A DNA stretch of 64,000 nt from a virus (taxonomy: Duplodnaviria; Heunggongvirae; Uroviricota; Caudoviricetes): the IMG/VR virus record IMGVR_UViG_2758568661_000004; one strand, written 5' to 3'. Positions within the stretch are counted from its first letter, which is position 1. Every line of letters starts with the position of its first letter. Below the pieces are notes generated by a model, which saw nothing but the letters and a program-made list of their open reading frames with translations, did not search any database and was not told the DNA's origin. Shown in pieces: positions 1-62,489 of this stretch. A program made the position numbers and the translations under genes.

Positions 1-273
1 CTGTCTGGCTGAACCTCGGGTTCAGGGTCCGGTGCGGGGGTGAACGGAACGTACGTGCCCGCCTTCACATCAGCTTTGTGGATCTTGTGCCAGTTCCGCC
101 GAGCGTATGCGGACGGGAACGCGTCGGACAGTTGACCGCAGGAGCAGAGGGCGCGACCTTCACCGGCGGAGGTGATGTAGCGCGCACCGTTGGTGATGCG
201 GTTCTTGTAGATGTTGAACGGGGCGCCCTCGTTGAGGAGGTAGTGCCCGGAGACTCGTGTGAACTCGGTCATG
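1..273 (-). CDS. hypothetical protein (N-terminal part; gene continues beyond window start)
   Basis: Minus-strand ATG at 271-273 preceded by AGGAAAGGA SD and a class-I junction motif at 295-305; frame open to window edge (MTEFTRVSGHYLLNEGAPF...). Absent from ORF track because truncated. Confidence 0.45.
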
Positions 274-309
274 GTGTTTCCTTTCCTACCGCATCATGCG
301 CAGGTTCGT

Positions 310-618
310 TCAACCGGCCTTATTTACCCCGTAGGAATCACCGATTTCGAACTCGTGGTACGTCGTCTCGTCGACGTACACCCAGCCGGTGTCCCGGCCG
401 TCATCCAGGTTGAATCTCCACTTCTCGGACACATGCTGCTGAACCGGCATCTGCACGGTGCAGTTCATGTTCTTGTCGTAGGAGTAGCACTGCATGGTTG
501 TGTAGCTGTACGCCGGCTCGTAGTTCTTCCCGGTGACCGTTCCGGCGGAGATTGCGGAACAGCCCGCGAGGATGACAACAGCGGCAGCCACGGTAACAGC
601 GACGAGGATCTTCTTCAT
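310..618 (-). CDS. lipoprotein (signal peptide + LAGC lipobox)
   Basis: ORF track; N-term MKKILVAVTVAAAVVILAGCSA; junction motif 627-637 with 4-codon minicistron ending ATGA on start. Confidence 0.7.
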   Translation of the reverse strand: MKKILVAVTVAAAVVILAGCSAISAGTVTGKNYEPAYSYTTMQCYSYDKNMNCTVQMPVQQHVSEKWRFNLDDGRDTGWVYVDETTYHEFEIGDSYGVNKAG

Positions 619-626
619 GCCACCCT

Positions 627-637
627 CATGCGCAGGA
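627..637 (-). promoter_or_regulatory. class-I junction motif (coding-strand TCCTGCGCATGAGG), representative
   Basis: 2 nt after upstream stop, motif ATG 11 nt before downstream ATG. Confidence 0.6.
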
Positions 638-639
638 GC

Positions 640-889
640 TCAGACGAACTGTCCGACTTTGAGGTTGTTGAACATGCCAGGTGACACGTACCGCCAGCCG
701 ACGCGGCCGCGTTCGTCTCGCACGTCAAGGCGGTACAGGGTGCGGTCGCCGCGCTTCTCGATCGCCTTCACGAGGATGCGGCCGTTACGGGTGAGCGGGA
801 GGCGGTACAGGTAGCCGAGAGCGGCGACGGCAGCTGAGGCGAGGGCAGCGAGGATGAGGGAATTCTTGGGGGTCATATGGGTAGTCATG
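640..889 (-). CDS. small membrane-anchored hypothetical protein
   Basis: ORF track (640..924) trimmed to class-II motif ATG (MTTHMTPKNSLILAALASAAVAALG...); ATGA overlap with upstream stop. Confidence 0.5.
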
Positions 890-1319
890 CGGCGAACATC
901 GGCTGGGCCTGCCGTGCAGACCACCCCCAGAACGCCCGTATCGTCACCATGAGAACCGTGCCGATGATGGCACCGGACGCGTTCATCGCCACATCTTGGA
1001 GGCTGGGGAACCGGTTATGCAGGAACAGCAGCTGCCCCAGTTCCGCCGTCATGGATGCGGCCGCACCGCCTGCCGGTGCAACCCACCACAGGCGGGGCGG
1101 TAGTGATGCGGCGAGCAGGAACCCGACGGGGATGAAGAACATGATGTTCGCGGTCGCCTCCAACTGCGGGTACCCGAACCAGCTGGGAAGCACACCAGCG
1201 TGAGCCCAGGTGAGGGCGTCGGAAATCTGGGTGGAGAACGGGGCGTCAACCGGTCCGGGAGAAGCCACAACTGCGACCCCGAACCCGATGTAGAGGGCGA
1301 GAAGGATCCGGGGAAGCAT
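885..1319 (-). CDS. VanZ-like membrane protein
   Basis: ORF track; multi-TM; SLQDVAMNASGAIIG resembles VanZ family motif. Confidence 0.6.
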   Translation of the reverse strand: MLPRILLALYIGFGVAVVASPGPVDAPFSTQISDALTWAHAGVLPSWFGYPQLEATANIMFFIPVGFLLAASLPPRLWWVAPAGGAAASMTAELGQLLFLHNRFPSLQDVAMNASGAIIGTVLMVTIRAFWGWSARQAQPMFAA

Positions 1320-2522
1320 CAGTACAGGTTCACGCCGCGGGCGCTCATGAACGGTTGCGCGTCGATACGGGAGCCGTCCTGGAACACCTCGAAGTGCAGG
1401 TGGCAGCCGGTGGAAGCGCCGGTTGATCCGACAAGCGCGATGACCTGACCTGCGGTCACCTGCTGGCCGTCGGCCACTTGGATGCCTCCGTCAACGATGT
1501 GGGCGTACCCAGTTTCGAAGTCACCGTGGGAGATCTTCACGAAGTTCCCGTATGTTCCAAGACGTCCAGCCCAGACGACAGTTCCGGTGGCGGCTGCGTA
1601 GATCGGGGAGTTGCAGGACGCGCCGATGTCGGTTCCGTAATGGGTGCCGCCGGAGCATCCACCGGATGAGCAGATGACGGCACGGGGGCCGTACACATCG
1701 GTGATTCCGCCGGCGGCAGGTCGTGCCCAACCGGATGGGCCGACAGCACCGGCTGTGTAGCTACCACCGACACGGGATGGTGTGATGATGGCGCTTCGGT
1801 AGGCGGCAGCTGTTGCAGCCTCCTGGTTGCGGAGGAATGCAACCTTCGCTTCCATCTCGACGATCTTCACCTGCTGGGCGGCGAGGGCAGCGTCCGCTTC
1901 CTGCTGGGCATCTTTCGCGTCATCCAGTTTCGCCTCAGCTTCCTCGCGGAGCTTCTCCCGGGCGCTTTCCGCTGCGTCAGCCTGGCCGGACAGCGATTCG
2001 GACGTGTTCGATGCAACCTCAGCGGCTTCGTACACGGTGGCGGTTGAACTGGTGACTTTGGACATCCGCGCCAGCCTCGACAGCATGTCTTTGGATTTGC
2101 TTTCATCGGAGAGGAACATCTGCACCTGCTGGTCGCCGACGTTCCCGGAACGATACATCTGCGCAGCCATCTGCCCAGCTATTTTCGATGCGTGCTTCGC
2201 TTCCGCCTGAGCTTTGCCAGCCCTCTCGGAGAGGTCGTCCGCGCGTTCGGTGGCGGCATCCAGTTTCTGCTGCGCTTCATCCAGGTCTGCGGCTGCGGAG
2301 TCCGCAACCTTCTGAGCGTTCTTGATGTCGTCGTTCAGTTGGCCGATGGATGCTTCCAGTGAGTCAACCTGCGCTTGGGCGTCGGCGGTGTTCGCTTTCG
2401 CTTTCTCCACATCCGACCAGCTGGGGTTCTCGACAGCGTTTGCGGGTGCTGCGGCAGCACCGATGGCAACGGTCAAGGTGATTGCTGCGGCGGCAAGGGC
2501 GGTACGGAGTGCGGATTTCATA
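1319..2522 (-). CDS. secreted M23 (LytM-type) peptidoglycan metalloendopeptidase with coiled-coil region
   Basis: ORF track trimmed to MKSALRTALAAAAITLTVAIGAAAAPANA signal peptide; long Ala/Glu/Lys-rich coiled coil; C-term GSTGASTGCHLHFEV M23 signature. Confidence 0.85.
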
Positions 2523-2609
2523 GGATTGTGTTTCCGGGTGAGTACGGCGAAGGGGTTACCTGCACAGACATGCGGCAACCCCTCCGATGGAGACGAAATC
2601 GTGTCGGGG

Positions 2610-3833
2610 TCAGCCGACGGTGGAGCCTACGGATGCCATGAACGGCTGCGGGTCAACACGGCTGCCGAACAGGTACACCTCGTAGTGGAGGTGGCATCCG
2701 GTGGAAGCGCCGGTGGACCCGACGAAGCCGATGACATCGCCGGCCTGCACGTACTGACCAAGGCCGACGTTGTATCCGGACAGGTGGGCGTAGCCGGTCT
2801 GGGCGTTGGCGCCGTGGTCGACCATGATGAAGTTGCCGTGGGTGCCGTCGTAGGCGGCGAAGTTGACGGTTCCGGCGTGGGCTGCGAGGACGGGGGTTCC
2901 GCATCCTGCGGCAACGTCGGTGCCCGAGTGGAACCCGGAGGAGCAACCGTCGCCGGCGCAGATGACGGCGCGGGGTCCGTAACCGTCGGAGATCCCACCG
3001 GTAGCGGGGTCAACCCAACGGTTCAGGTAGGCCTGCTCGGCGGCGATGCGTGCAGCTTCAGCCTCAGCAGCCTTGCGGGCTTCCTCAGCCTTGCGGGCTT
3101 CCTCTTCCGCCTTCTTCTGCGCTTCGATGTCGGCGAGGCGCTGCTCCGCGGCGGTCTGCGCCTTCTTCTCAGCCTTGACGGCTTCCTTCTCGAATGCGGT
3201 GGTGTCCTGAGCGTTCTTGTCTTCGAGGAAGTCCAGCTGAGCCTTCAGCTCTGCCGCCTTGACCTCGTGGGCGGCCAGGTCTGCCTCTGCCAGCTTCTGA
3301 ATCTCGGCGGCAGCGGCAAGCTCCTCCTCGGGGGTGAGGGCGGGTTCCGGCTTCGCGGCGGCGCCGTTGGCGATGTCGTTCACAGGTGCCGGTGCTGGTG
3401 CGGCGAGGGCCGGTGCGTCCTTCTGCACGTCCTCGACTGCTGACAGGACAGCCGTGACGGATTCCTTATCTTCGGCCGGGGCGGGTTCCACAACATCACC
3501 GGTGGCTTTCAGGCGGGCGTCCACGAGGGCGGCTGCGGCTGCCTCGGCGTTCTCCCGTGCCTTCTCGACTTCATCGTCGATGTGCTTGAGGCTGGTGACG
3601 ATGACCTTGGCCTGCTTGTGAGCGGTTTCAGGGGCAGCCTTCACAGCGGTCAGGGTTGTCCAGGACGGGTTCTCGCTGACGGTTGCGGTTGTTGCCATGG
3701 CGTTGGCGCTGGCTCCGAACACGGTGGCTGCTGCGATGGATGCTGCGATGATCGTGGTGCGGACTCGGGTTTTGGTGCTGGGGGTCAAAATGGTGGTTCT
3801 CCTTGAGTGGGGCGATTTCTTCGCTATCCCCAT
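2610..3833 (-). CDS. secreted M23 peptidase paralog with coiled-coil region
   Basis: ORF track; start is either motif ATG 3833 (HSRRTTIL possible Tat-like n-region) or TTG ~3788 behind AAGGAG SD; C-term GSTGASTGCHLHYEV. Confidence 0.85.
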   Translation of the reverse strand: MGIAKKSPHSRRTTILTPSTKTRVRTTIIAASIAAATVFGASANAMATTATVSENPSWTTLTAVKAAPETAHKQAKVIVTSLKHIDDEVEKARENAEAAAAALVDARLKATGDVVEPAPAEDKESVTAVLSAVEDVQKDAPALAAPAPAPVNDIANGAAAKPEPALTPEEELAAAAEIQKLAEADLAAHEVKAAELKAQLDFLEDKNAQDTTAFEKEAVKAEKKAQTAAEQRLADIEAQKKAEEEARKAEEARKAAEAEAARIAAEQAYLNRWVDPATGGISDGYGPRAVICAGDGCSSGFHSGTDVAAGCGTPVLAAHAGTVNFAAYDGTHGNFIMVDHGANAQTGYAHLSGYNVGLGQYVQAGDVIGFVGSTGASTGCHLHYEVYLFGSRVDPQPFMASVGSTVG

Positions 3834-3989
3834 GCGCAGGACTGCCCGCTAGAACGCGGAAAGTGCCTTTGGCGCTCTCCTATTTGCCTTTTGACCGGGC
3901 TTTCTAACAGTTCCCTGAATGCCACGCTCAGGCTCTTCGCTCGCTTGATTGACTGTCGAATGGCGCCGATACCCAGCTGCCGGGAACAC

Positions 3990-4024
3990 GAAAGCCGTCA
4001 CGGTTCGGGTCCGTGACGGCTTTC
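3990..4024 (-). terminator. intrinsic terminator hairpin (14-bp perfect stem GAAAGCCGTCACGG/CCGTGACGGCTTTC)
   Basis: Perfect inverted repeat 14 nt after the stop of the 4038..4538 gene. Confidence 0.6.
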
Positions 4025-4037
4025 GTGGGCTTGTGGG

Positions 4038-4538
4038 TCAGGCTGCGAGTGGCAGCTCCTCGTCCTCGTCGCCGATCAGGTAGAACGTGCGGGCGATGTT
4101 CGCTGCGTCATCCCATCGGTCGCCGGACAGGTCGAAGGTGACCTCCTCGACGGTGGCGTTGTTCGTGTCGGCGATCGCGTAGACGATCTCGTCGTTGTCC
4201 ACGACGTCGTGCAGGGCGACGACGAAACCGTCGGGTGCGATCAGGTTGAGCTCGTCGAGGATGGTGAGGGCGCGGCGTGCGAGCTCCAGCTCTTCAACGG
4301 CTTCCTCGACGCTGGCGCGGACGATGTCATCCGAGTCTGCATCAGTGATTGTGATGAACGTCTCGAGGCCGGTGATCTGGCTGACGATGTCGAACTCGTA
4401 CAGGGGTGAACCGTTGAACGTGTCGGCGGCGCTGAACACGGCGACGTGGAAGGGAGGCAGGAACTGCTCGATGCGGTCCAGTCCGTCCATGATCTGCTCG
4501 AGAGCTGCGGCGTCGAGGGTGGCGAAGTTGTTGCTCAT
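4038..4538 (-). CDS. acidic hypothetical protein
   Basis: ORF track (4038..4556) trimmed to ATG behind GGAGGAG SD (MSNNFATL...). Confidence 0.6.
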   Translation of the reverse strand: MSNNFATLDAAALEQIMDGLDRIEQFLPPFHVAVFSAADTFNGSPLYEFDIVSQITGLETFITITDADSDDIVRASVEEAVEELELARRALTILDELNLIAPDGFVVALHDVVDNDEIVYAIADTNNATVEEVTFDLSGDRWDDAANIARTFYLIGDEDEELPLAA

Positions 4539-4711
4539 GGTGTGGTGCTCCTCCATAGGGGCGGTGCGGCAGGACGCTGCACCGGCTGGTCACTCACGAC
4601 ATGCGCAGAGGACCGATTCCGGTGAAGGCTTCTAGGAAGTCTGAGGATTGCAACCAAACATCACGCCGGAGGAGACGATTCCGTTGCGGAAACCTCACCC
4701 ATGTACCCCGC

Positions 4712-7700
4712 TCAGTTCACTGTTGTCGTCTGGGCGCTGGTCCACACGGTGTCTTTGTACCCGGCTTTGACCGCGGTGACGGTGACGGTGAGCTTCGCAC
4801 CTTTGTCAGCCAACACCAGCTTGTAGGTCTTCGCGGAGCCGCCGGCGATGGCGGTTCCGTTGCGGAACCACTGGTACTTGAACGTGGTGGTGACGGGGGT
4901 CCAACCGGTTCCGGCTGTCGCGGTCAGCAGCTGACCGACGGTGGTAGTTCCGGAGATGGTGGGCAGGTTCGACCCGGTGAAGGACGGCTTCTCAGCGATT
5001 GCGGCGGTGGCGCTGCTCGTCCAGGACTTCTCGACGTAGAGCGGGTTGATGGCGGTGACCGTGACTGTGATGGTCTTGCCCACCTCGGCGTCCTTCAACA
5101 CGTACGTCTTCGCGGCCGCTCCGACGATGGGTGCACCGTTGCGGAACCACTGGTACTTGAACGTGGTGGGTGCCGGTGTGAGGCCGGACGGGACGGCAGT
5201 CAGTGTCTGCCCGTTGGTGGTGATGCCGGTGATCGCGGTTGTCGCGGTTCCGGAGAACGGGAGTGTCGCACCGGTTGTCCCTTGCCCGTCAACCACCCAC
5301 ACTTTGCTGACATAGGTGGCGCGGATCCCGGTCACCTGTACGGTGATTACCTTTCCGAGGTCAGCTGCAACCTGAACGTAGACGTTCTTGGTGGCTCCGG
5401 TGATGGCAACACCGTCACGCAGCCACTGGTAGGTGTAGCTGGCGGGCATCGGGGTGAGACCGGCGGTGCCGGGCTTCACTGTCAACGTCTGGGCGACGTT
5501 GCGGATGCCGGAGACCGTTGCCGTGGGGGTGCCGTCCAACGGGAGCATCGCACCGGTGGTGAGCTGATCCCCGGCGGTCCATACCTTATTCTGGTAGTTG
5601 ACGCGAACACCGGTGACTTTCACGGTGACCTTCTTGTTGAGGTCGTCGTTCGTCTGGATGTATGTGTTCTTGGTGGCTCCGGTGATGGCAACACCGTCAC
5701 GCAGCCACTGGTAGGTGTAGCTGGCGGGCATCGGGGTGAGACCGGCGGTGCCGGGCTTCACTGTCAACGTCTGGGCGACGTTGCGTATGCCGGAGACAAC
5801 AGCGTCGGGGGTGCCGTCCATCGGCAGCATGTCCCCGGCGATGGTCCCGCCGACAGTCCATGTGCGACTGGTGTATCCGGGTGTTGCTGCGGTCACCTTG
5901 ACCGTGATCGCTTTCCCGAGCTCGGCTGCTTTCACCATGTACAGGTTCTTGGTGGCTCCGGTGATGGCGACACCGTCCGCGTTCCACTGGTACGTGTATG
6001 CCTTCGGTGCGGGGGTGAGGCCGGACGGGGTGACGAGCAGGGACTGTCCGACGTTGAACTTCCCTCCAACACCGGCCGCGGGGATTCCGGCGAAGGTGGA
6101 CAGGACGCCGGCTTGCACCGGGTTGCTGGTCCAAGTGGTGTTCGTCACACCTGGGCGGATTCCAGTGACGGCGACAGTGAGCTGCGCTGTCATGTCGGCG
6201 TCACCGACAGTGTAGGCGGCGGCGATCGCACCGGTGATGGCGGCACCGTTCCGGTACCACTGGTACTTGTAGGAGGCGGGTTTCGGCGCCCAGCCGGCGT
6301 CCGGGACGGCGGTGAGCTTGGTGCCCCATGCGATCGGTGAGGTGCCAACGAATGTGATGGCGGGCTTGTTCGTTCCGGTGAACGGTCCGACCGGCGGGAC
6401 GGTCACCTGTTCGGACATCCAGGTGCGGTTGGTGCGCCCCGTGGCGGTCGCGGTGACAGCGACGGACAAGTTCTTCTGGATGTCCGCGGTGGTGACCGTG
6501 TACGTGTTCTTGGTTGCTCCAGCGATGAGGGCGCTGTCGCGCATCCACTGGTACTTGTATGTGGTGGGCTTCGGAACCCAGTCGTTGCCAGGTGCGGCGG
6601 TGAGAACCGATCCGGTGAGCTTGTCGCCGGTGATGGTGGGCAGTACATTTCCGGCGAAGCTGTTGGCTCCGCCGGCGTTCGCGCCAGCGGTCACGGAGAC
6701 GGTAGCGGTGGCGCCGTCGACGGAATCAACTTTCACGGAAACGCCGAGGGCTGCGGAATTGAAGGTGTCACCTGCACCCCAGACGAAGGAGCGGACACCG
6801 GCGGACACCTGCTTCGGGATGACGACGGATGCGCCGTTCGCGTCGATTTTCAGGATGCGGACACCGGTTCCGACGCGGGGGCGTTCGTTCCCTGACGGGT
6901 TCGGGTAGCGGGTGTAAAGGGCGTTGGCGTCACGTCCGGTGGCGTTGCGGTACTCGACGTAGTAGGTGACGTTCGAGTTGGTGTCGGTGACCTTGATGCC
7001 GCGGGTGCCGGTGCCGGATGCGCTGTTCAGTGTGAACTGGGTGGTTCCGGACGTTGGTGCGGTGATGAGGTCGGATCCGAGCAGGTTCAGTCGTGAGCGC
7101 TGGGTGACGTTCAACGCGGTCAGGGTGGGGTTGGATGCGCCGTTCAGCAGGTAGGAGGCGGCCATTGTGTCGTATAGGTCGCCGTACACCTGGTCGGTGC
7201 AGCCGGTGGTGTAAGGGGCGACACCATCTACGGTGGGGGCGGTGCAGTTGTGGGTGTTGGAGTGGTTCAAGGAGAAGTTGTGACCGAACTCATGGGCGAT
7301 GGTCTGGGTGTTCGCCCCGGGCAGGTCCGCCAGCCAGACGAGGCCGCCGGAGTTGATGCCGGATCCGACGGTGGCGAGTCCGATAGCGCCGGTGGCGCAG
7401 CTGTTGGGAGAGATGACCAGCAGGTGCTTGCCGGGGGTGTTGTAGTACGTGTTCGTGGTGTTGCCGAACTTCGTGGCTGCTTCGGTCCAGAGGTTGTTCT
7501 GGTTGCAGGCGTTTGCGGAGCTGTACCGCTGGACGGTGCCGACCCGGTTGATGGCGGAAACGGATCCGCCAGCCTGGTCGGACCAGAACTCTGACGCGAG
7601 GCTGACGAGGTTGTCCACGGCTGCGTCGTTGAATGGTGCCGCCTGACCGCTGGTGGTGACGACGGCGACGTCGACTGTGTGAATGGCTGGTGTCGCTGCG

Positions 7701-8158: not shown

Positions 8159-8256
8159 GCTGCGTTAGGCATGCGGCGGTCCGGCCTGGTTGCGTCAGTG
8201 GCGCGGGGTTCGCTGCGTGTCACGCAAAGATTGTGCGGATCGGGTGTGAACGTGTT

Positions 8257-8706: not shown

Positions 8707-8784
8707 GTTCACATCATGCGCAGAACCTATCTGTTTGGAACAACTGCATAGGCCCGCGCCGGTGGTGACCCCCACGAAAATGAT

Positions 8785-10366: not shown

Positions 10367-10375
10367 GCGGCCCGG

Positions 10376-10522: not shown

Positions 10523-10544
10523 ATGGGATTCCCATGCGCAGGAT

Positions 10545-54989: not shown

Positions 54990-55016
54990 GGGATGGTCAT
55001 GCGCAGGAACTCTTGC

Positions 55017-55418
55017 CTAGCCGACGTCGACTGCCGGCCGGTCGTTCAGGACACTCATCACACGCTCGTACACGAGGTCGCACACCCCGTCCGGGACGTT
55101 ATGAAGGTACCGGGTCGGTTTGCCGACACTGTTGCATTCCACCAGCTGCGCCACCCATCGGATGGGTGTGGCGATGCTCTCCACCGTCCATGACCGGTTG
55201 TTGAACGCCTTGTCAGCCGTGCCGGGCTTCGTCCCGTTCAGCTCCACCAGATAGTGGCCGGGAACATCCGGGTTGTCGGTCGTCAGCAGAAGCCTGGCGA
55301 TCTCCTCGGCGAGGTCGTGGGTGGGGGTGTTCACATCCAGGTTGGATGAACGGATCTTGTTCAAGTTCACGGCGGGTGTCTCCTCTATGCGGTCGTGCTC
55401 AGAGGAGGCATGCGGCAA
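55017..55418 (-). CDS. hypothetical protein
   Basis: ORF track; TTG within class-II motif or GTG ~55365 behind GAGGAG. Confidence 0.5.
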   Translation of the reverse strand: MPHASSEHDRIEETPAVNLNKIRSSNLDVNTPTHDLAEEIARLLLTTDNPDVPGHYLVELNGTKPGTADKAFNNRSWTVESIATPIRWVAQLVECNSVGKPTRYLHNVPDGVCDLVYERVMSVLNDRPAVDVG

Positions 55419-55428
55419 CGGGGTGTCG

Positions 55429-56544: not shown

Positions 56545-56569
56545 GCCGGTGAGGCATGCGGCGGGATGG

Positions 56570-57319
56570 TTACACGCCGGCGGCTTTCCTGACCGCTGCG
56601 AGAACCTGCTCCGGTGTGCGACCCCGGTCGGCGAGGGCGCGGCGGATCTCCTTCAACACCTTCCGGTCGCGCTTCGTCTTCGCTTCGAACGCTTCCAACC
56701 AGTCACCGTCGACAACAACGTCGTCGGGGCCGTAGAAGGTGGGGCTGGCTCCAGGCTGCAGGTATCCGAGGTACGTGTCGGGACGGTCGTCATGCTCGGC
56801 AAGCCAGGTCTTCCGCGCTTCGGAGTCTGCACGGACACGCTCCAAATGTGCGGCATGCTCCGCGTCATCACGGACACGGTTCCGTTCAAGCTCACGCTGC
56901 TGCTCATCCAGAAGGGAGGCGGCGTTCATGATCAGGCCGGACAGTTGCGGGGAGGCGACCAAGGTCGCGCGAAGCGCAGCAGAAACCGGGTTGACCTGCT
57001 CTGTCGTGGGTCGCGGTCGGCGTCCCGGGAACAGCCGGTCGAACCGTGCCATTGACTCCACGGACACGATCACGTTCACGCACCGGTTGATGAGGTTCTC
57101 AGCGTCCGGGTGGGCGGCGGCGTAGTCATTCAGCTCTTCGACGAACCCTTCAACGACTGGTGATGACGGTCGTTCCGGGTTGATGTACGCCTGCAGTTCC
57201 CACACTTCCTGCTGCTTCGAGTGGAGCATCTTCGCGGCAGCGGCAAGGAGCTCACCGGCGACGACGTCGGGGGTCTCGGCGAGGCTGCGGAGGTCACGTT
57301 CAAGCTTGTCGGTTGTCAT
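56570..57319 (-). CDS. hypothetical protein
   Basis: ORF track (..57364) trimmed to MTTDKLERDL, which gives ATGA overlap with upstream gene. Confidence 0.55.
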   Translation of the reverse strand: MTTDKLERDLRSLAETPDVVAGELLAAAAKMLHSKQQEVWELQAYINPERPSSPVVEGFVEELNDYAAAHPDAENLINRCVNVIVSVESMARFDRLFPGRRPRPTTEQVNPVSAALRATLVASPQLSGLIMNAASLLDEQQRELERNRVRDDAEHAAHLERVRADSEARKTWLAEHDDRPDTYLGYLQPGASPTFYGPDDVVVDGDWLEAFEAKTKRDRKVLKEIRRALADRGRTPEQVLAAVRKAAGV

Positions 57320-57921
57320 GGTAGTTGCCTGTCTGTGGTGGTGTCGGTTTCTGCGACCGGCCACGGGGTTGATTCGGAAGGCCAGACGGTTCCTGTGTCG
57401 GCGTGCCAGGTGTTCTCGGCACGCACCTTCTGGATGTGGTCAGCGGCGAACCTGGTGAGAGCCGGCCGGAGGTACCGGGTGAAGGGGATGGTTTTGCTGA
57501 GCTCCCCGAGAATCATGAACAGGATGACGGGGACGCCGATGAGGGCGATGAACTTGGAGGCGTCGTCGGTCAACGCGTAGAGGCGTGGTGAGTTGAGCAG
57601 ACCGGAATGGAGGATGACCGCGTCAGCGACCAGGCCGACGGTGACGCCGATGGTCCGGCCGAGGATCCGGTCGGTTGCCACCATCTTCTGGGTGACCTCG
57701 TTCACGTCCGCGGTCTCGATGTTGGCGCCGAGGGTGGTGAGGAACGGTTTCCGGTCGGGGAAGGTGAGGAGGACGGTGGGGTTGTCCTGCCAGCCGGGGT
57801 CGGTTTCGTCGTCTTCGCTCTGCGGCCCGACTTTCGCTCCGGTGATGGCGTGGACGTCACCGTCCAGACGGACGAAACGGCCGACGATGCGGTCAGGGTC
57901 GGTGATGGTGATCATGCCCAT
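57316..57921 (-). CDS. membrane protein
   Basis: ORF track; central TM helices; GAGGAG SD. Confidence 0.55.
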   Translation of the reverse strand: MGMITITDPDRIVGRFVRLDGDVHAITGAKVGPQSEDDETDPGWQDNPTVLLTFPDRKPFLTTLGANIETADVNEVTQKMVATDRILGRTIGVTVGLVADAVILHSGLLNSPRLYALTDDASKFIALIGVPVILFMILGELSKTIPFTRYLRPALTRFAADHIQKVRAENTWHADTGTVWPSESTPWPVAETDTTTDRQLP

Positions 57922-57968
57922 CGGGGTGGTGCTCCTCGGTTGCTGTGGTTACTGGGTTGCCATGCGCA

Positions 57969-58113
57969 GGTTCACCCGAACGCAGGCTGGGCTGCGGCGC
58001 ACGAACGGCAGAAGACGATGAAGTTGTACGGGTTGTCGGCGACCTGTCTTGCTTCTGCTGCGGTGAGTTTCCGGAGGACGGTGCCGCAGTCCTGGCAGTC
58101 GAGGGTGGGTTCG
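57969..58113 (-). CDS. zinc-ribbon mini-protein (~48 aa, below ORF-track cutoff)
   Basis: MSFHEPTLDCQDCGTVLRKLTAAEARQVADNPYNFIVFCRSCAAAQPAFG; ATGA overlap with 58121..58339 stop; class-I motif right after its stop. Confidence 0.35.
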
Positions 58114-58600: not shown

Positions 58601-58758
58601 ATGGTGGTCATGCGCAGGGTTGACGCCCATCCAACCGGATTACATCGTTACACCTTGATTACCGCTTCGCTGTAACAGGCTTTTTCCCGGTCAGCGCTTT
58701 GTTTTTAGGCTCGTTACATCCGTTACACTTCATAGGTGCATGTATATGGGAGGAAGAT

Positions 58759-58794
58759 GACATGTTTCGACGCCGGCCTGGGCGCAAACATGTC
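58759..58794 (+). terminator. plus-strand hairpin (GACATGTTTCG...CGCAAACATGTC) followed by TCTTTTCTCTT
   Basis: Sits inside a 17-codon mini-ORF preceded by GGGAGGAAG SD at 58748. Confidence 0.45.
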
Positions 58795-58957
58795 TCTTTT
58801 CTCTTAACGTAAGTAATAATGAATTGTAATCTTGTAATATATAGATAGAAGGGTGTCTCGCCCTACTCCCGTCTGGGATCCACCGTTACGCAGGTGGTGT
58901 AACGAGATGCAATCGGAGTAATCCGGGGCGACTCGTCGCGCGTTTCGGCGCTCATCT

Positions 58958-59061
58958 GTCAACCCTGGTTGACAAGACTGATTCTGAGGCCATCTGGGCG
59001 TCAACCGTGGTTGACACACGAAGTCAACGCGGGTTGACGTTTCCTGTCAACGTAGGTTGAC
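58958..59061. repeat. array of four 16-bp palindromes GTCAAC-N4-GTTGAC (operator, iteron or centromere-like)
   Basis: Copies at 58958-58973, 59000-59015, 59023-59038, 59046-59061 (spacing 42, 23, 23 bp); extra half-sites at 58620 and 59067. Confidence 0.7.
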
Positions 59062-59102
59062 GAATGCTTGACCGTTATCCCGGCCGCATCCCGGAAACAG
59101 CG

Positions 59103-59128
59103 AAAGCCGCCCACAGTCGGACGGCTTC
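59103..59128 (-). terminator. hairpin terminator after 59150..59410 gene
   Basis: AAGCCGTCC-GACTGTG-GGCGGCTT followed by TCGCTGTTTCC on minus strand, 25 nt after stop. Confidence 0.5.
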
Positions 59129-59149
59129 ACACTACGGATCGTCGGCAGC

Positions 59150-59410: not shown

Positions 59411-59451
59411 GGGTGAGCCTTCCTTCGTTGTCACATGGTTCATGCGCAGAG

Positions 59452-59775: not shown

Positions 59776-59887
59776 ACCACTCCTCTGCCGTTGACAACAG
59801 AGGCCATTCTCACGGACCGTGTGGCGTCACGGGAAAACCGGCACACCACCCGATCAGGTGGGGCGAGGACGCGGCTCCTGGCGCACG

Positions 59888-60274
59888 TCAGCGCATGAAC
59901 TGCGCCACCACGACCATGGCCGGGTTGTCCGTCACTTCAATGGCGGAAACGTCGGGATGGGTATTGAAGTAGTCCTCTGCCCACGCGATCGCCTCCTCGC
60001 GGTCGAAGAAGCTCCCGTTGTACCGGTTCGGGTTCGGACCGCTCTTCGGGTTCCACGAATAGCCGCCGACGGGGATCCACGAGACGTTGAATGAGCCGAC
60101 CGGACGGGAAGGGTCAAGGGCTGCAAGCAGCTTGTCAACTTCGGCGACCAGCGCTGGGGCCTCCTCGCCTCGTTCCGCTGAATACCTCTCACGGGCATCG
60201 AACAGAGCTCCACTGATTGCGGCGGCATTCCTCGGGCTGATCGTCGAAAAATCGACAGTGGACTCTGCGCTCAT
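59888..60274 (-). CDS. hypothetical protein
   Basis: ORF track; C-terminus overlaps an inverted partial motif palindrome GCGCATGAACTGCGC. Confidence 0.55.
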   Translation of the reverse strand: MSAESTVDFSTISPRNAAAISGALFDARERYSAERGEEAPALVAEVDKLLAALDPSRPVGSFNVSWIPVGGYSWNPKSGPNPNRYNGSFFDREEAIAWAEDYFNTHPDVSAIEVTDNPAMVVVAQFMR

Positions 60275-60345
60275 GAAGGCTCCTTCGTGGTGCTCTGTCT
60301 GTGAATTTGTCTGTGGTTTCGCATCGTACCCATACTGCCGGGCAC

Positions 60346-60957
60346 TCAGAACTGTGAGATGAACGCGTCGATGCGCGCCACGTCGTCCATGGTCACACCA
60401 ACCGTCGGCAGTGGCTCAATCATCATGTGCGGGACGTCGAAGATGGTGTCCTCATGGAAGTTCGACCATGTACGGCCGATAGCGATCTCCTGGTCGTCAA
60501 TCCAGATCCACGGCTGTTGGGTGTCCTGGATGCGCCAGCGGAGGCCTTCACGTTTCCATTCGGCTGGGACGGCACCACGGACGCGGGACGGCATCTTTCG
60601 GAGGACGAATCCACCGGCCATCTTCCCGTCGAACGCTTGCTCGACGAGGGCGCGGGCGCCGGGACCCCATGTGGTCAACCAGCCGAGCTCAACACGACCG
60701 CTGCGAACGAAGCCGTCGAGGGCGTCGATGATGTCCGGGTTGAAATCCACCCAATACTTCTGGCCATGCTGCAACCTGACCCGACGGCGGACGTTCCCGT
60801 CAGCAACCGGAGGGATCACGCTGTCCAGCGTGAGACCGCCGGCACGGTTCCTCTCCCACTGCTCGAAGTCGATGATGTTCAAGCAGTCATCGATGTCCTG
60901 GGCGAGCAACGGCTTCGAGCCGTCGAACGCGTCAGGTGGGAGCAAGGTTTCCATGCT
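60346..60957 (-). CDS. hypothetical protein
   Basis: ORF track (..61437) trimmed to METLLPPDAFDG; class-I motif 60963-60973 (CTGCGCATGATGTGAGCATGG, near-identical to the 8715 junction). Confidence 0.55.
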   Translation of the reverse strand, partial: SMETLLPPDAFDGSKPLLAQDIDDCLNIIDFEQWERNRAGGLTLDSVIPPVADGNVRRRVRLQHGQKYWVDFNPDIIDALDGFVRSGRVELGWLTTWGPGARALVEQAFDGKMAGGFVLRKMPSRVRGAVPAEWKREGLRWRIQDTQQPWIWIDDQEIAIGRTWSNFHEDTIFDVPHMMIEPLPTVGVTMDDVARIDAFISQF

Positions 60958-60974
60958 CACATCATGCGCAGAGT

Positions 60975-61577
60975 TCACGCCATTCCGCGTGCAGTTTGGG
61001 CGATGCCGACAAACAAATACAGGACACCCAGCACCAACCCGACGATCGGCATCCACCGACCCTTCTGCCCGGGCGTGAACTTCGACAGCCCAATCCCGGA
61101 GAACACGATAGCGCTGAGCGTCACAGGCACCCCGATGATCAGCGGGATGAACGCGAAGATGGACACGATGCCGAGGATGAACCCGGTGGTGGCGAACCCG
61201 TTCGACGTGGTCTGCGTGGTCTTGATCGCAGGCGGTCCAGGTGACGGCCGCTGCGACCCTGTGTAGCCGTTTGCCGGTGCTAGCCGTGCCGGTGACGGTG
61301 ATGTGCTCGGCGGCTGCTTCTTGGTGAGTGCCGTCGAGGCGGTCGACTGCTGCCTGCCCTCTGATGCCGTCATCGGCAGCGGATGCGGTTTTGGCAGGTT
61401 CTGCGCAACTGCGGTTGGCGTGTTCTCCGTCACCCATTGCTGATACCGGCGATGCAGCGCCGCAGGATCCGCCGCCAACGCATTCGCGAAGTCGTCGGTG
61501 GCGCTGACATCAATCCGTTTCCTACCCTCCGGGGTGGCGAAGTGAAACGACCATTGCGCAAAGTCGAGCTCAGCCAA
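60975..61577 (-). CDS. membrane protein with Pro/Ser-rich linker
   Basis: ORF track; C-terminal TM helices. Confidence 0.55.
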   Translation of the reverse strand: MAELDFAQWSFHFATPEGRKRIDVSATDDFANALAADPAALHRRYQQWVTENTPTAVAQNLPKPHPLPMTASEGRQQSTASTALTKKQPPSTSPSPARLAPANGYTGSQRPSPGPPAIKTTQTTSNGFATTGFILGIVSIFAFIPLIIGVPVTLSAIVFSGIGLSKFTPGQKGRWMPIVGLVLGVLYLFVGIAQTARGMA

Positions 61578-61634
61578 CCTGTCCTCCTGACGGTCCTGAT
61601 GCGTTGAGTGTACCGACGCGGGTCACTAGGCGAT

Positions 61635-62489
61635 TCAGCCAGCTGCGGCTGCCTCGAATGTGAACGCACCGGTCTTGTCAGTGATGGTCACCGTGACATT
61701 CGCGGTGCTGCTGTCTGACCCTGTAGCCACACAGGTGTACACAGCACCGGCAGTGAAACCGATGTGTTCCGGGCAGGTGACGTCGGTGACGGTGACCGTT
61801 GAACCGGCAGCGACCAGCTGGGCGGTGTACTCAGTTGAGATTTGAGATTCCACGTTCTCCGACTGGGCTGTCTCGAGGACACTGCTGTCTCCGGTGACCC
61901 CGCCGGCGAGCCCGAGAGTGAACCCGAGGATGAACGGGATGAGTGCGAGTGCGGCGACGATGATGGAGATGATCCCGAGGGCTTTACCTCCGCGATGGCG
62001 TCGTTTCAAGCCGATGGACCCGAGGATAATGGCGGTGACAGCACCGATGGCGGGGATGGGTGCGTCACCGGACATGATGGCGCCGAGCAACGCGACGCCG
62101 GCGAGGATGGCTGAGCTGATGATCAGGCTGCCGCGCTTCCGCTGGCGTTCTTCCTTCCATGGCGAGCTGACCGGGGCGTTCACCGCTGCGTTGACCTGTG
62201 CAGGAGTCCACCCCTGCGTGGGCTGATGCTGCGGGGCAGGCGGGATAGCGGTGCCACCAGGCTGCTGAGGGGCACTGAACGCCGGTGCTGCTGAAGGTGC
62301 AACCAGAACCGGTTGGGCGTACGCCTGCTGCTGTGGGGCGTACTGCACGGCAGGTGTCACCGGAGGTGCTGTGATCGACACAGCCTCACGGGTGTGCGTC
62401 GACCATGATCCGTCCCACCAGCGGAGCATGTCCGGTCCAGTCGGGTCAGCTTCCGGGTCGGGGTACCAGCCGGGCTTCGGTGCGTTCAA
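61635..62489 (-). CDS. DUF2510-like membrane protein
   Basis: ORF track; N-terminal GWYPDPEADPTGPDMLRWWDGSWS; Pro-rich linker, central TM; TTG start behind GAAGGAG. Confidence 0.6.
   Translation of the reverse strand: MNAPKPGWYPDPEADPTGPDMLRWWDGSWSTHTREAVSITAPPVTPAVQYAPQQQAYAQPVLVAPSAAPAFSAPQQPGGTAIPPAPQHQPTQGWTPAQVNAAVNAPVSSPWKEERQRKRGSLIISSAILAGVALLGAIMSGDAPIPAIGAVTAIILGSIGLKRRHRGGKALGIISIIVAALALIPFILGFTLGLAGGVTGDSSVLETAQSENVESQISTEYTAQLVAAGSTVTVTDVTCPEHIGFTAGAVYTCVATGSDSSTANVTVTITDKTGAFTFEAAAAG

What the first reader, a model, noticed from the sequence alone, without database searches (positions are those of the whole stretch)
1..62489. 62 kb of strictly co-directional, tightly packed genes consistent with a mobile-element cargo region of unusual organisation
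More than 100 consecutive genes share one strand, with frequent 1-8-nt overlaps and very few terminators (3990, 8785, 34775, 51851, 59103). The content mixes plasmid- or phage-associated functions (Dam methylase, DNA ligase, HD hydrolase, SprT-like protease, DUF4192, HTH regulators, many zinc-ribbon mini-proteins) with cell-surface and membrane functions (sortase, adhesin-like protein, flotillin, AI-2E transporter, M23 peptidases, giant proteases). No integrase, relaxase, T4SS or virion gene is visible. Actinobacterial chromosomes rarely show 100% strand bias over this length. This suggests a single large plasmid, ICE or phage-like replicon with polycistronic, motif-punctuated expression, or a long leading-strand island.
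Basis: inference. Interest (0 to 1): 0.5.

Follow-up and report, generated by a model that had tools for sequence, protein, structure and literature searches.

The report
One-strand gene array of giant plasmid
About 100 mostly unknown genes lie head to tail on one DNA strand in what is most likely the variable arm of a giant plasmid of a Microbacteriaceae bacterium, and a 12-base signal repeated in front of about every third gene looks like a private promoter shared by this plasmid family.

Summary
I genes between 3 and 62,489, all on the minus strand. No integrase, relaxase, T4SS or virion gene is present, including in 19 kb of recovered flanks.

The window has no close relative in public phage, plasmid or GTDB collections. 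A flanking module (DUF2637, J-domain, UvrD-like helicase) and the flotillin gene tie it to Leifsonia sp. Leaf264 (71-78% identity, syntenic). More distant relatives are 100-250 kb metagenome contigs and the 546-608 kb Curtobacterium giant plasmids, where same-strand arrays of small unknown genes are normal.

In Leaf264 the flotillin and g2 homologues lie 1.2 kb apart. Here they are 51 kb apart, so about 640-51,850 is variable cargo.

The block is not a few long operons. T[C/T]CTGCGCATG[A/G] occurs 35 times in the window and 42 times in 83 kb, against about one expected. Every copy points the same way as the gene downstream of it. Either it ends exactly 7 nt before an ATG that has no Shine-Dalgarno sequence, or it lies further upstream of a start codon that has one. 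Variants with the same spacing occur in all relatives. I read it as a family-specific promoter giving leaderless or leadered mRNAs. This is inferred, not shown.

The parts
3..62489 (-). Same-strand block of 98 called genes (g1-g98), 92% coding
   Evidence: independent gene calls
640..51850 (-). Variable cargo (g3-g82) lying between two blocks that are adjacent in Leifsonia sp. Leaf264
   Evidence: tblastn against L024: the flotillin and g2 homologues are 1.2 kb apart there and 51 kb apart here
51902..57921 (-). Conserved backbone block g83-g89. Identity to Leaf264: flotillin g83 78%, g84 44%, g88 36%, g89 38%. The AI-2E transporter g87 is absent from the Leaf264 locus.
310..618 (-). g2 lipoprotein (phrog_4392), a backbone gene with a paralogue in the left flank and a 48% homologue in Leaf264
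3983..4032 (-). Terminator hairpin after g7 (17-bp stem, -32.8 kcal/mol)
8784..8812 (-). Terminator hairpin (13-bp stem plus T tract), followed by the motif copy at 8714-8725
34771..34804 (-). Terminator hairpin (15-bp stem), followed 5 nt later by the motif copy at 34755-34766
51842..51891 (-). Strongest terminator (22-bp stem, -35.3 kcal/mol, UUUUG tail) after flotillin g83. It marks the backbone/cargo boundary.
59090..59139 (-). Terminator hairpin after g93
294..305 (-). Motif copy ACCTGCGCATGA, 21 nt before the g1 ATG, with a Shine-Dalgarno sequence
626..637 (-). Motif copy TCCTGCGCATGA, then 7 nt, then the g2 ATG
3830..3841 (-). Motif copy upstream of g6 (leadered, with Shine-Dalgarno)
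4599..4610 (-). Motif copy CTCTGCGCATGT upstream of g7
8714..8725 (-). Motif copy, then 7 nt, then ATG (g9; implies a start at 8706)
10532..10543 (-). Motif copy, then 7 nt, then the g15 ATG
10963..10974 (-). Motif copy, 31 nt leader with AGGAGG (g16)
24036..24047 (-). Motif copy, 24 nt leader with Shine-Dalgarno (g24). It heads a 13-kb motif-free unit running through Dam, two giant proteins and the ligase.
24629..24640 (-). Motif copy upstream of g25
28503..28514 (-). Motif copy at the start of g33
32648..32659 (-). Motif copy in the gap upstream of g43
34755..34766 (-). Motif copy directly after the terminator (g47)
37695..37706 (-). Motif copy, 34 nt leader with GGAGG (g52)
38493..38504 (-). 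Motif copy, then 7 nt, then the g55 ATG
39388..39399 (-). Motif copy, 27 nt leader with Shine-Dalgarno (g57)
40842..40853 (-). Motif copy, then 7 nt, then the g60 GTG
41249..41260 (-). Motif copy, then 7 nt, then the g61 ATG
41663..41674 (-). Motif copy upstream of g62
44231..44242 (-). Motif copy upstream of the sortase gene g64 (inside the end of g65)
45171..45182 (-). Motif copy upstream of g67
45925..45936 (-). Motif copy, leader with GAAGGAGG (g69)
46996..47007 (-). Motif copy upstream of g71/g72
47758..47769 (-). Motif copy, 37 nt leader (g73)
48323..48334 (-). Motif copy, then 7 nt, then the g75 ATG
48862..48873 (-). Motif copy, then 7 nt, then the g76 ATG
50181..50192 (-). Motif copy upstream of g80
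50669..50680 (-). Motif copy, 26 nt leader with Shine-Dalgarno (g81)
53471..53482 (-). Motif copy, 114 nt leader with AAGGAGG (flotillin g83)
54997..55008 (-). Motif copy, then 7 nt, then the g85 ATG
57960..57971 (-). Motif copy, 38 nt leader with GAGGAG (g89)
58608..58619 (-). Motif copy, then 7 nt, then the g92 ATG
59440..59451 (-). Motif copy upstream of g93 (leader with GAAGGAAGG)
60962..60973 (-). Motif copy, then 7 nt, then the g96 ATG (start at 60954)
62606..62617 (+). Motif copy on the plus strand, 100 nt upstream of the plus-strand gene g99. The motif follows gene orientation.
63652..63663 (+). Motif copy on the plus strand, 88 nt upstream of the plus-strand gene g100
1319..3833 (-). 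g5 and g6: paralogous secreted coiled-coil M23 peptidases
4712..8158 (-). g8: giant secreted reprolysin-like metalloprotease with 93-aa Ig-like repeats (1148 aa)
10976..11959 (-). g17: ATP-dependent DNA ligase
12011..21312 (-). g18 (1604-1670 aa) and g19 (1466 aa): paralogues of g8
21343..22140 (-). g20: orphan Dam-type (D12) adenine methylase
25773..26606 (-). g28: HD-domain dNMP phosphatase (phrog_318)
28525..28851 (-). g34: small HTH protein with homologues on pS16 and on Arthrobacter plasmids
32674..33696 (-). g44: SprT-like (ArdC-type) metalloprotease-domain protein
41843..44196 (-). g63 (surface protein with a type-IV-pilin-like N terminus) and g64 (sortase)
50689..51744 (-). g82: DUF4192 protein
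55429..56544 (-). g87: AI-2E family transporter
58601..59149 (.). Largest non-coding gap. It holds four GTCAAC-N4-GTTGAC palindromes (58958-59061), GTAACG repeats and a 38% GC tract (58750-58849). It could be an ori, par or operator region.
62718..64000 (+). The first two opposite-strand genes (g99, g100), which end the run

Best explanation
The window is the variable cargo arm, with part of the backbone, of a very large plasmid-type replicon of a Microbacteriaceae bacterium. It belongs to the same loose family as a Leifsonia sp. Leaf264 element and the 546-608 kb Curtobacterium giant plasmids (pS16, pCPAA3).

About 100 mostly small, lineage-restricted genes lie head to tail on one strand. They are not a few giant operons. 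At least 33 copies of one 12-nt element, T[C/T]CTGCGCATG[A/G], sit between the stop codon of one gene and the start of the next, always pointing in the direction of the genes.

I read this element as a -35-less promoter occupying -19 to -8, with A at -11 and T at -10. Transcription would then start 7-8 nt downstream. Where an ATG sits exactly there, the mRNA is leaderless and has no Shine-Dalgarno sequence. Elsewhere a 15-115 nt leader with a normal Shine-Dalgarno sequence follows.

Within units, genes are translationally coupled through ATGA/GTGA overlaps. Only five strong terminators exist, and four of them are immediately followed by a new motif copy. Read-through is therefore frequent. Placing every gene on one strand makes read-through harmless, because it prevents convergent transcription and antisense RNA. 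It also lets one factor switch on the whole arm.

Shown: the anatomy, the statistics, and the conservation of motif and spacing in relatives. Inferred: promoter function, the leaderless mRNAs, a dedicated factor and plasmid status.
For: Mobile-replicon nature.
- The 82.8 kb holds no housekeeping gene, and about 85% of the genes have no Pfam match.
- It carries a toxin-antitoxin pair, Dam, SprT/ArdC-like, ligase and HD genes, and the DUF2637/J-domain/UvrD-helicase module.
- The helicase is 71% and the flotillin 78% identical to Leifsonia sp. Leaf264, with conserved gene order.
- The same module occurs on metagenome contigs of 101-247 kb.
- The only PLSDB hits of the unknown genes are Micrococcales plasmids of 375-608 kb, and 13 of 124 proteins hit 182 kb of pS16.
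- pS16 carries RepA and ParA and has same-strand runs of 50-80 small unknown genes.

Motif.
- The 12-mer with at most 1 mismatch occurs 28 times in the window against 0.44 expected.
- The exact 9-mer core occurs 42 times in 82.8 kb against about 1 expected: 39 on the minus strand and 3 on the plus strand. Every copy faces the same way as the gene downstream of it, and nearly all are intergenic.
- No conserved -35 region is present.
- There are two spacing classes. About 15 sites have exactly 7 nt to the start codon, with mean SD pairing energy -2.0 kcal/mol; 14 of these 15 starts are ATG. The others lie 15-114 nt upstream, with mean -6.9 and 9 of 21 ATG starts (Fisher p = 0.004).
- Position -1 is mostly C.
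- Four of the five terminators are followed by a motif copy within 20-150 nt.

Family-wide conservation.
- Variants are TCCGCACATG in Leaf264, TGCCGCGCATG in three metagenome relatives and tCCGCGCATAg in pS16 (116 copies in 382 kb).
- All are strand-specific and all show the same N8-ATG spacing after GC[GA]CAT[GA].
- This includes the sites in front of orthologous genes, where the spacer sequence differs but its length does not.
Against: - No replication, partition or transfer gene and no replicon end lies in the 82.8 kb available. Read depth could not be examined, so an integrated state is not excluded.
- The Leaf264 relative sits on a 701-kb contig of unknown status.
- Only about 10-15% of the genes have detectable homologues in the relatives.
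- Promoter function is inferred from position alone, and no TSS data exist.
- The -10-like part lacks the usual T at -7.
- The element is a near-palindrome (TC.TGCGCA.GA), which would also suit a dimeric repressor.
- No cognate sigma or RNA polymerase gene was found here. In 382 kb of pS16 the only sigma gene is FliA-like and sits in the flagellar cluster.
- I could not test whether the motif is equally common on the host chromosome.
Confidence: 0.6

Rival explanations
1. The same element family, but here integrated in the chromosome as a very large genomic island or ICE rather than an autonomous plasmid.
For: No rep/par gene lies in 82.8 kb. The DUF2637 protein matches a PHROG annotated as excisionase. 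The Leaf264 relative lies on a 701-kb contig with sugar-nucleotide genes about 9 kb beyond the helicase. More distant helicase homologues are chromosomal, for example in Agromyces sp. Root81.
Against: There is no integrase, att-like repeat or tRNA in 82.8 kb. The annotated relatives are circular plasmids with RepA and ParA. A 701-kb contig is in the size range of those plasmids.
Confidence: 0.2
2. Early or host-takeover region of a very large actinophage or phage-plasmid. The repeated motif would then be a phage-specific promoter.
For: Several genes fall in PHROG families: Dam, dNMP phosphatase (7e-66), SprT-like, helicase (5e-95) and an MmcB-like protein. One-strand layout with many copies of one promoter and few terminators is the classic phage pattern (T7, T4 late; my own knowledge). 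A review reports a distant terminase-like gene on pCPAA3 (PMC8929003).
Against: No capsid, portal, terminase, tail or lysis-cassette gene lies in 82.8 kb. No phage record shares more than one gene. IMG/VR holds no close relative of three proteins. The content is rich in sortase, flotillin, transporter and giant surface proteins. pS16 carries RepA and ParA, flagella and type IV pilus genes.
Confidence: 0.07
3. The 12-nt element is an operator for an element-encoded repressor, which silences the whole arm by blocking elongation or initiation (as stoperators do). It would not itself be the promoter.
For: It is a near-palindrome. It is asymmetric, sits in short intergenic gaps, and always has one orientation relative to transcription, as with the cluster A mycobacteriophage stoperators (the comparison rests on my own knowledge). 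Small HTH proteins are present, for example g34.
Against: An operator does not explain the two spacing classes: exactly 7 nt to an SD-less ATG, or a longer distance with an SD. It also does not explain why the spacing stays fixed across five diverged elements while the spacer sequence changes, nor the terminator-then-motif arrangement. The two roles are not mutually exclusive.
Confidence: 0.15
4. The element acts in RNA. It would be a processing site that cuts polycistronic RNA into leaderless mRNAs, or a start-associated translation signal like the SAS of cluster K mycobacteriophages.
For: It shows fixed spacing to the start codon, SD-less starts and strict sense orientation.
Against: More than half of the copies lie 15-115 nt upstream of starts that have their own SD. 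The motif has no complementarity to the anti-SD sequence, and no structure is associated with it. The C at -1 and purine at +1 fit transcription initiation.
Confidence: 0.06
5. Ordinary chromosomal region whose strand bias reflects leading-strand gene preference.
For: GC and AT skews keep a constant sign over the window.
Against: The skew is explained mainly by codon usage: third-position GC skew is about -0.28 in coding orientation, as in pS16. No core gene lies in 82.8 kb. The relatives are plasmids.
Confidence: 0.02

Closest known systems
Curtobacterium giant plasmids: pS16 (NZ_CP126255, 546 kb), pCPAA3 (CP018784, 567 kb) and NZ_CP126274 (608 kb)
   Same: They share the UvrD-like helicase (40-42%), J-domain, DUF2637, Dam, SprT/ArdC, M23, RES, flotillin and AI-2E genes, plus several otherwise orphan families (g9, g34, g48, g84, g90). 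They have long same-strand arrays of small unknown genes. They have the same promoter-like element with the same N8-ATG spacing.
   Different: The motif variant differs (GCGCATA against CTGCGCATG). Only about 10% of the genes are detectably shared and there is no long-range synteny. GC is 67% against 63%. Whether this element carries RepA/ParA, type IV pilus, FtsK or flagellar genes is unknown.
Leifsonia sp. Leaf264, contig LMMR01000005.1 (unannotated relative; locus L024)
   Same: This is the closest relative. Identities are helicase 71%, flotillin 78%, g84 44%, g2 48% and DUF2637 41%. Gene order is g89-g88-g84-g83 ... g2-[DUF2637 trio]-DnaJ-helicase. A motif copy with a 7-nt spacer precedes the same genes.
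   Different: It lacks the 51 kb between flotillin and g2. Its motif variant is TCCGCACATG. The status of the replicon is unknown.
Phage transcription programmes built on one promoter class (T7 class II/III promoters; T4 late promoters, which have a -10 element only)
   Same: Genes lie on one strand, there are tens of near-identical promoters and few terminators, and a -10-only element needs no -35 (the phage facts are my own knowledge).
   Different: No phage RNA polymerase, gp55-like factor or virion genes were found. The carrier looks like a plasmid. The proposed output is leaderless mRNA, an actinobacterial trait.
Mycobacteriophage cluster A stoperators and cluster K start-associated sequences
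   Same: These are short asymmetric motifs in many short intergenic gaps, with one orientation relative to transcription. The SAS also sits a few bases before start codons (my own knowledge).
   Different: Stoperators have no fixed distance to start codons. The SAS contains the SD sequence, whereas this motif does not, and it also occurs far upstream of SD-bearing starts. The sequences are unrelated and the host family differs.
Leading regions of conjugative plasmids (anti-defence islands)
   Same: They show strict one-strand orientation and carry an orphan methylase, an ArdC/SprT-like gene and many small unknown genes (the concept is my own knowledge).
   Different: No oriT or relaxase is nearby. 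The block is five to ten times longer than typical leading regions. Much of the cargo is cell-surface and membrane proteins.
TtrA-type terminal helicases of Streptomyces linear plasmids
   Same: The flanking helicase is about 35% identical to UvrD-like helicases that sit 2-6 kb from the ends of many Streptomyces plasmid records. In two metagenome relatives the module lies 15-18 kb from a contig end.
   Different: No telomere or terminal-protein gene was seen. The Curtobacterium relatives are circular.

Membership tests
Microbacteriaceae giant plasmids of the pS16/pCPAA3 type | DUF2637, J-domain protein and UvrD-like helicase genes | tested here: met
   They are present as one module in the left flank (window -6064 to -1644). 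The helicase is 40-42% identical to the three Curtobacterium plasmids. pS16 carries all three genes.
Microbacteriaceae giant plasmids of the pS16/pCPAA3 type | Long same-strand arrays of small genes of unknown function | tested here: met
   98 of 98 genes here. pS16 has 78 of 90 genes on one strand in 50-100 kb and about 50 in a row in 157-183 kb.
Microbacteriaceae giant plasmids of the pS16/pCPAA3 type | Strand-specific GCGCAT[A/G] element, followed by N8-ATG or by a leader with a Shine-Dalgarno sequence | tested here: met
Microbacteriaceae giant plasmids of the pS16/pCPAA3 type | Own replication and partition genes (RepA, ParA) and an extrachromosomal molecule | not testable with these tools
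   None is found in the 82.8 kb recovered.
Microbacteriaceae giant plasmids of the pS16/pCPAA3 type | Substantial shared gene content | tested here: inconclusive
   13 of 124 proteins hit one third of pS16 at E<1e-5, with identities of 29-56%.
T4SS-type conjugative plasmid or ICE | Relaxase, VirB4-type ATPase and coupling protein | tested here: not met
   No such Pfam or PHROG match in 124 proteins. The only P-loop protein is the UvrD-like helicase.
T4SS-type conjugative plasmid or ICE | Integrase or recombinase and attachment sites (for an ICE) | tested here: not met
   No integrase and no tRNA.
Actinomycete TraB-type conjugative elements (AICE and Streptomyces plasmids) | FtsK/SpoIIIE-family TraB translocase | tested here: not met
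   Absent from the 82.8 kb. It is present on pS16, so it may lie outside the recovered part.
Tailed phage or prophage | Terminase, portal, major capsid and tail genes | tested here: not met
   PHROGs finds none. The M23 domain hits to 'endolysin/tape measure' families are domain-level only. There is no multi-gene match to any of 50,697 phage records.
Plasmid leading region (anti-defence island) | One-strand orientation plus anti-restriction-type genes | tested here: met
   Orphan Dam methylase and an SprT/ArdC-like gene, with all genes on one strand. Assignment is by domain only.
Plasmid leading region (anti-defence island) | Adjacency to oriT and a relaxase; single-strand promoters | tested here: not met
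   No relaxase lies within 82.8 kb. The repeated motif is not a hairpin.
Actinobacterial leaderless-mRNA promoters | -10 element ending 6-7 nt before a start codon that lacks a Shine-Dalgarno sequence and is AUG or GUG | tested here: met
   15 sites have exact 7-nt spacing, with mean SD energy -2.0 against -6.9 kcal/mol and 14 of 15 ATG starts.
Actinobacterial leaderless-mRNA promoters | Housekeeping -10 consensus TANNNT | tested here: not met
   The hexamer at -12 to -7 reads CAT[G/A]RN. A-11 is kept and T-7 is not conserved. This points to a different specificity factor.
Actinobacterial leaderless-mRNA promoters | Mapped primary 5' ends at the start codon | not testable with these tools
   No transcriptome data are available.
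Stoperator-type repressor sites (cluster A mycobacteriophages) | Many asymmetric sites in short intergenic gaps, with one orientation relative to transcription | tested here: met
Stoperator-type repressor sites (cluster A mycobacteriophages) | Cognate immunity repressor on the element | tested here: inconclusive
   Small HTH proteins exist (g34), but none is linked to the motif.

The most novel reading that the evidence does not exclude
A family of Microbacteriaceae giant plasmids may run most of its genes from one private promoter class. That class has no -35 element and reads GC[G/A]CAT[G/A] at -15 to -9. It would be read by a plasmid-encoded, still unidentified sigma-like factor or polymerase whose specificity co-evolves with each plasmid, since four motif variants occur in five elements. 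The output would largely be leaderless mRNAs. This would amount to phage-style transcriptional autonomy in a plasmid, and the strict one-strand gene layout would be its structural consequence.
Probability: 0.3. Interest if true: 0.75.

Novelty: new variant of a known kind. Interest (0 to 1): 0.55.

Why it matters
Giant plasmids of plant- and soil-associated Microbacteriaceae are deposited in databases but barely studied. The only comments I found in the searchable library are a size and GC entry with a few gene predictions in a review, and a mention of a tmRNA.

This window shows that such replicons carry 50-kb-scale, fast-turnover cargo made almost entirely of unknown small proteins and large surface proteins. 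It also shows that the whole family shares a simple, highly conserved cis-element with a fixed geometry relative to start codons.

If the element is a promoter, it gives three things:
- a ready-made, testable regulon definition for hundreds of orphan genes;
- a natural model for leaderless gene expression in Actinobacteria;
- a compact, portable promoter for Microbacteriaceae genetics.

It also improves gene-start annotation, because ATG 7 nt after the motif marks the start. It explains the extreme strand bias without invoking anything exotic.

Tried and rejected
- Megablast of 25 kb against phages and plasmids found nothing.
- tblastn of concatenated proteins against phages and plasmids gave only single-gene hits and no synteny.
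- An exact 42-mer from the source contig was absent from the GTDB species representatives.
- The protein-pattern scan of GTDB with the helicase returned only Acinetobacter loci at 32-38%, an artefact of 8-mer seeding.
- IMG/VR held no relatives of g82 or g84. The helicase family is common there, but only at 31-39%.
- Word-indexed homologue searches returned nothing for g84 and one chromosomal hit for g82. g84 does have 30-44% homologues in Leaf264 and pS16, so 'ORFan' here means no close relative.
- The sample accession and the motif were not found in the literature library.
- Rfam found no family in the window, and there are no tRNAs.
- Replication direction from GC skew was inconclusive. The whole-sequence skew is mainly codon usage. 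A residual strand asymmetry exists but may reflect gene-caller bias or codon adaptation.
- A cognate sigma factor was sought in 382 kb of pS16 annotation. Only a FliA-like sigma in the flagellar cluster turned up.
- The idea that the ATG inside the motif is the real start codon was rejected. It is out of frame with the downstream gene (offset 11 nt) and usually opens no ORF.
- A chromosomal helicase homologue in Agromyces sp. Root81 lacks the module, so the helicase alone is not diagnostic.

Full report
**Observation.** The window has 63% GC throughout. Gene calling with a codon model trained on the long ORFs gives 98 genes on the minus strand between 3 and 62,489 and none on the plus strand. 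Two plus-strand genes follow, at 62,718 and 63,752. Coding density is 92%. Of 97 junctions, 36 are overlaps: 25 are the 4-nt ATGA/GTGA type, 4 are 1 nt and 3 are 8 nt. Another 22 gaps are 30 nt or less.

They lie at 3983-4032, 8784-8812, 34771-34804, 51842-51891 and 59090-59139. Generic terminator-like and sigma-70-like matches do not exceed shuffled controls. About 85% of the genes match no family, and there is no integrase, relaxase, T4SS or virion gene. The window contains no tRNA and no Rfam family.

**Source and flanks.** Exact-protein look-ups place the window in two contigs of a public assembly of run SRR7126390. Contig_18 covers window 6,237 to 73,066, and contig_11 covers -11,768 to 4,886. 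Both break inside the repeat protein g8. I joined them to the window to make an 82.8-kb sequence.

To the right, after the two plus-strand genes, the minus-strand array resumes. It is interrupted only by an Xre/RES toxin-antitoxin pair. It includes an MmcB-like nuclease and a DUF285 surface protein with a type-IV-pilin-like N terminus. To the left, two more same-strand genes are followed by three opposite-strand genes, one of them a DUF2637 protein that matches a PHROG annotated as excisionase. Then come same-strand genes for a J-domain protein, a UvrD-like helicase and He_PIG surface proteins. Overall, 116 genes lie on one strand and 7 on the other, and none is a housekeeping gene.

**Relatives.** Nothing matches at the DNA level in phages or plasmids. 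No phage or plasmid record shares more than isolated genes. An exact 42-mer is absent from the GTDB representatives. IMG/VR holds no close relative.

The flanking helicase was the handle. Its best homologue is in Leifsonia sp. Leaf264 (71%). Metagenome contigs of 101-247 kb follow (55-58%), then Agromyces (45-50%) and the Curtobacterium giant plasmids (40-42%). All are Microbacteriaceae.

The Leaf264 locus is syntenic. It holds homologues of g89, g88, g84 and flotillin g83 (78%), then g2, the opposite-strand DUF2637 trio, the J-domain gene and the helicase. The flotillin and g2 homologues are 1.2 kb apart there and 51 kb apart here. Window 640-51,850 is therefore a variable insertion or expansion between conserved backbone blocks, and the strongest terminator sits at its right edge. 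The three metagenome relatives carry the same DUF2637/J-domain/helicase module, followed by same-strand arrays of small unknown genes.

Among 18 unknown proteins tested, the only plasmid hits were to Curtobacterium, Arthrobacter and Pseudarthrobacter plasmids of 375-608 kb. In 182 kb of pS16, 13 of our 124 proteins have homologues.

pS16 is a circular 546-kb plasmid with RepA and ParA. It also carries two type IV pilus-like gene sets, FtsK/SpoIIIE proteins, a flagellar cluster and nucleotide-metabolism genes. It has same-strand runs of 50-80 small hypothetical genes that include M23, Dam, SprT, RES and HTH genes. The one-strand layout is therefore the norm in this family. The present run is simply a long example.

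**The repeated motif.** A repeat search turned up a short family next to start codons (family D20). The 12-mer TCCTGCGCATGA with at most one mismatch occurs 28 times in the window against 0.44 expected. The exact core CTGCGCATG occurs 35 times in the window and 42 times in the 82.8 kb, against about one expected. Thirty-nine copies are on the minus strand. The three plus-strand copies lie upstream of plus-strand genes (DUF2637, g99, g100). Orientation therefore follows the gene, not the strand. Nearly all copies are intergenic, typically straight after the previous stop codon. Nothing is conserved where a -35 element would be.

The sites fall into two classes.
- In about 15 sites the motif ends exactly 7 nt before the start codon. 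There is no Shine-Dalgarno pairing (mean -2.0 kcal/mol) and 14 of the 15 starts are ATG.
- In the others the motif lies 15-114 nt upstream of a start with a clear Shine-Dalgarno sequence (mean -6.9). Only 9 of 21 of these starts are ATG (Fisher p = 0.004).

The base before these ATGs is mostly C. Four of the five strong terminators are followed within 20-150 nt by a motif copy.

**Conservation of the motif.** Every relative has its own variant. Leaf264 has TCCGCACATG, the three metagenome contigs have TGCCGCGCATG, and pS16 has tCCGCGCATAg. All are strand-specific and follow the local gene orientation. All show the same N8-ATG spacing after GC[G/A]CAT[G/A] in a large class of sites, and longer Shine-Dalgarno-bearing leaders in the rest.

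In front of orthologous genes (g2, the helicase, DUF2637) the spacer sequence differs between this element and Leaf264, but its length does not. In 382 kb of pS16 there are 116 copies. They are dense in the small-gene arrays and sparse inside the flagellar cluster. I found no description of the motif in the literature library.

**Interpretation.** Taking the A of the ATG as +1, the conserved bases occupy -19 to -8, with A at -11 and T at -10. That is the geometry of a -10 region whose transcripts start at the start codon, as in the leaderless mRNAs common in Actinobacteria (established knowledge). It explains several observations together: the SD-less, ATG-dependent class; the SD-bearing leadered class; the pyrimidine at -1; the terminator-then-motif arrangement; and the strict co-orientation.

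The hexamer is not the housekeeping TANNNT, because T at -7 is not conserved. There is no -35 element, and the variant differs from element to element. Together these point to a dedicated specificity factor that evolves with each element. No such factor was identified, and this step is inference.

On this reading the block consists of at least 33 short transcription units of one to eight genes. The longest runs 13 kb, from 24,036 through Dam, two giant proteases and the ligase. Translational coupling operates inside units, and read-through between units is frequent. Putting everything on one strand makes that read-through harmless and allows a single switch.

Alternative readings are listed as rivals: a repressor operator of the stoperator kind, an RNA processing site, or a translation signal. 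The operator reading is compatible with the near-palindromic sequence but does not explain the spacing classes.

**What the cargo encodes.**
- Secreted and surface proteins: two coiled-coil M23 peptidases; three paralogous giant reprolysin-like metalloproteases with 93-aa Ig-like repeats; a pilin-like protein with a sortase; and lipoproteins.
- Membrane proteins: VanZ, DUF4190 proteins, flotillin and an AI-2E transporter.
- DNA-related functions typical of mobile elements: an orphan Dam methylase, a ligase, an HD dNMP phosphatase, an SprT/ArdC-like protein, a Panacea-domain protein and DUF4192.
- Dozens of small acidic or zinc-ribbon proteins with no relatives.

**What remains open.**
- Plasmid or integrated island. 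No rep/par gene, end or depth information is available.
- The identity of the factor that reads the motif.
- Whether the motif is absent from host chromosomes.
- The meaning of the palindrome and AT-rich region at 58.6-59.15 kb.
- A third-position skew asymmetry between majority- and minority-strand genes.

**Verdict.** It is wrong in calling the organisation unusual for its family and in describing it as a few long polycistrons. The window is a new, very divergent member of a poorly studied group of Microbacteriaceae giant plasmids. The family-wide leaderless-type promoter element is the part worth following up.

Noticed in passing
window 58601-59149: This is the largest non-coding gap of the block. 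It holds four 16-bp palindromes GTCAAC-N4-GTTGAC (58958-59061; 0.19 expected) that occur nowhere else in the 83 kb or in the relatives. It also holds several GTAACG repeats and the lowest-GC 100 nt of the whole sequence (38%, 58750-58849). The gap lies between a terminator and a motif copy. It could be an origin, a partition site or an operator array.
   Followed up: partly
whole 82.8 kb; also L024, L026, L027 and pS16 segments: Third-codon-position GC skew is -0.23 to -0.35 in majority-strand genes but -0.01 to -0.08 in all three groups of opposite-strand genes. The same tendency follows the local majority strand in the relatives. The template strand of most genes is therefore G+T-rich, which is the reverse of the usual leading-strand rule. 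The effect could also be weaker codon adaptation or gene-caller bias.
   Followed up: partly
window 41843-43327 (g63); L003 18873-20327 (window about 71590-73044): Two surface proteins start with a type-IV-pilin-like hydrophobic N terminus (...PW[AT]QDQA...). One of them carries DUF285/BspA-type repeats. A Leaf264 WD40/RCC1 protein shares the same N terminus. pS16 encodes two type IV pilus-like systems with prepilin peptidases.
   Followed up: partly
window 4712-8158 and 12011-21312: Three paralogous giant secreted proteins (37-39% identical) combine a reprolysin-like HExxHxxxxxH metalloprotease domain with 7-14 repeats of about 93 aa (279 nt) containing Y.YQW.RDG. None has an LPXTG signal. 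The repeats are where the public short-read assembly breaks.
   Followed up: partly
L004 5516-10951 (window -6064 to -629); L024, L026, L027, L029: A divergent module is conserved in all close relatives. A gene of about 40 aa, one of about 250-290 aa and a DUF2637/excisionase-like gene lie on one strand. A gene of about 200 aa, one or more J-domain genes and the UvrD-like helicase lie on the other. In two metagenome contigs the module sits 15-18 kb from a contig end. Similar helicases sit 2-6 kb from the ends of many Streptomyces plasmid records.
   Followed up: partly
L003 14600-16038 (window 67317-68755): An Xre/MbcA-type antitoxin and a RES-domain toxin form one of the few opposite-strand units. 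RES toxins recur in pS16 and in two metagenome relatives.
   Followed up: no
window 53494-54612 (g84): The word-indexed search of 5.8 billion proteins returned only the protein itself. Even so, tblastn finds 44% and 30% homologues in Leaf264 and pS16. An 'ORFan' verdict from that tool should therefore be read as 'no close relative'.
   Followed up: yes
window 8706, 58600, 60954 and other gene starts: The rule 'ATG 7 nt after the motif' picks start codons that differ from the longest-ORF or best-score starts for several genes (g9, g92, g96). It could be used to correct annotation in this plasmid family.
   Followed up: partly
pS16 (NZ_CP126255) 1-414 kb: This 'plasmid' carries LigA, thymidine kinase, Dut, ThyA, NrdHIEF, RNase H, SbcCD, UmuDC, SmpB, a full flagellar regulon and GH25 lysozyme, next to hundreds of small unknown genes. 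MOB-suite calls it non-mobilizable. A motif copy precedes the FliA-like sigma gene.
   Followed up: no
L024 about 1130-1160 (Leaf264): A run of about 20 C residues lies immediately upstream of the g84 homologue. It could be a slipped-strand switch or an assembly artefact.
   Followed up: no
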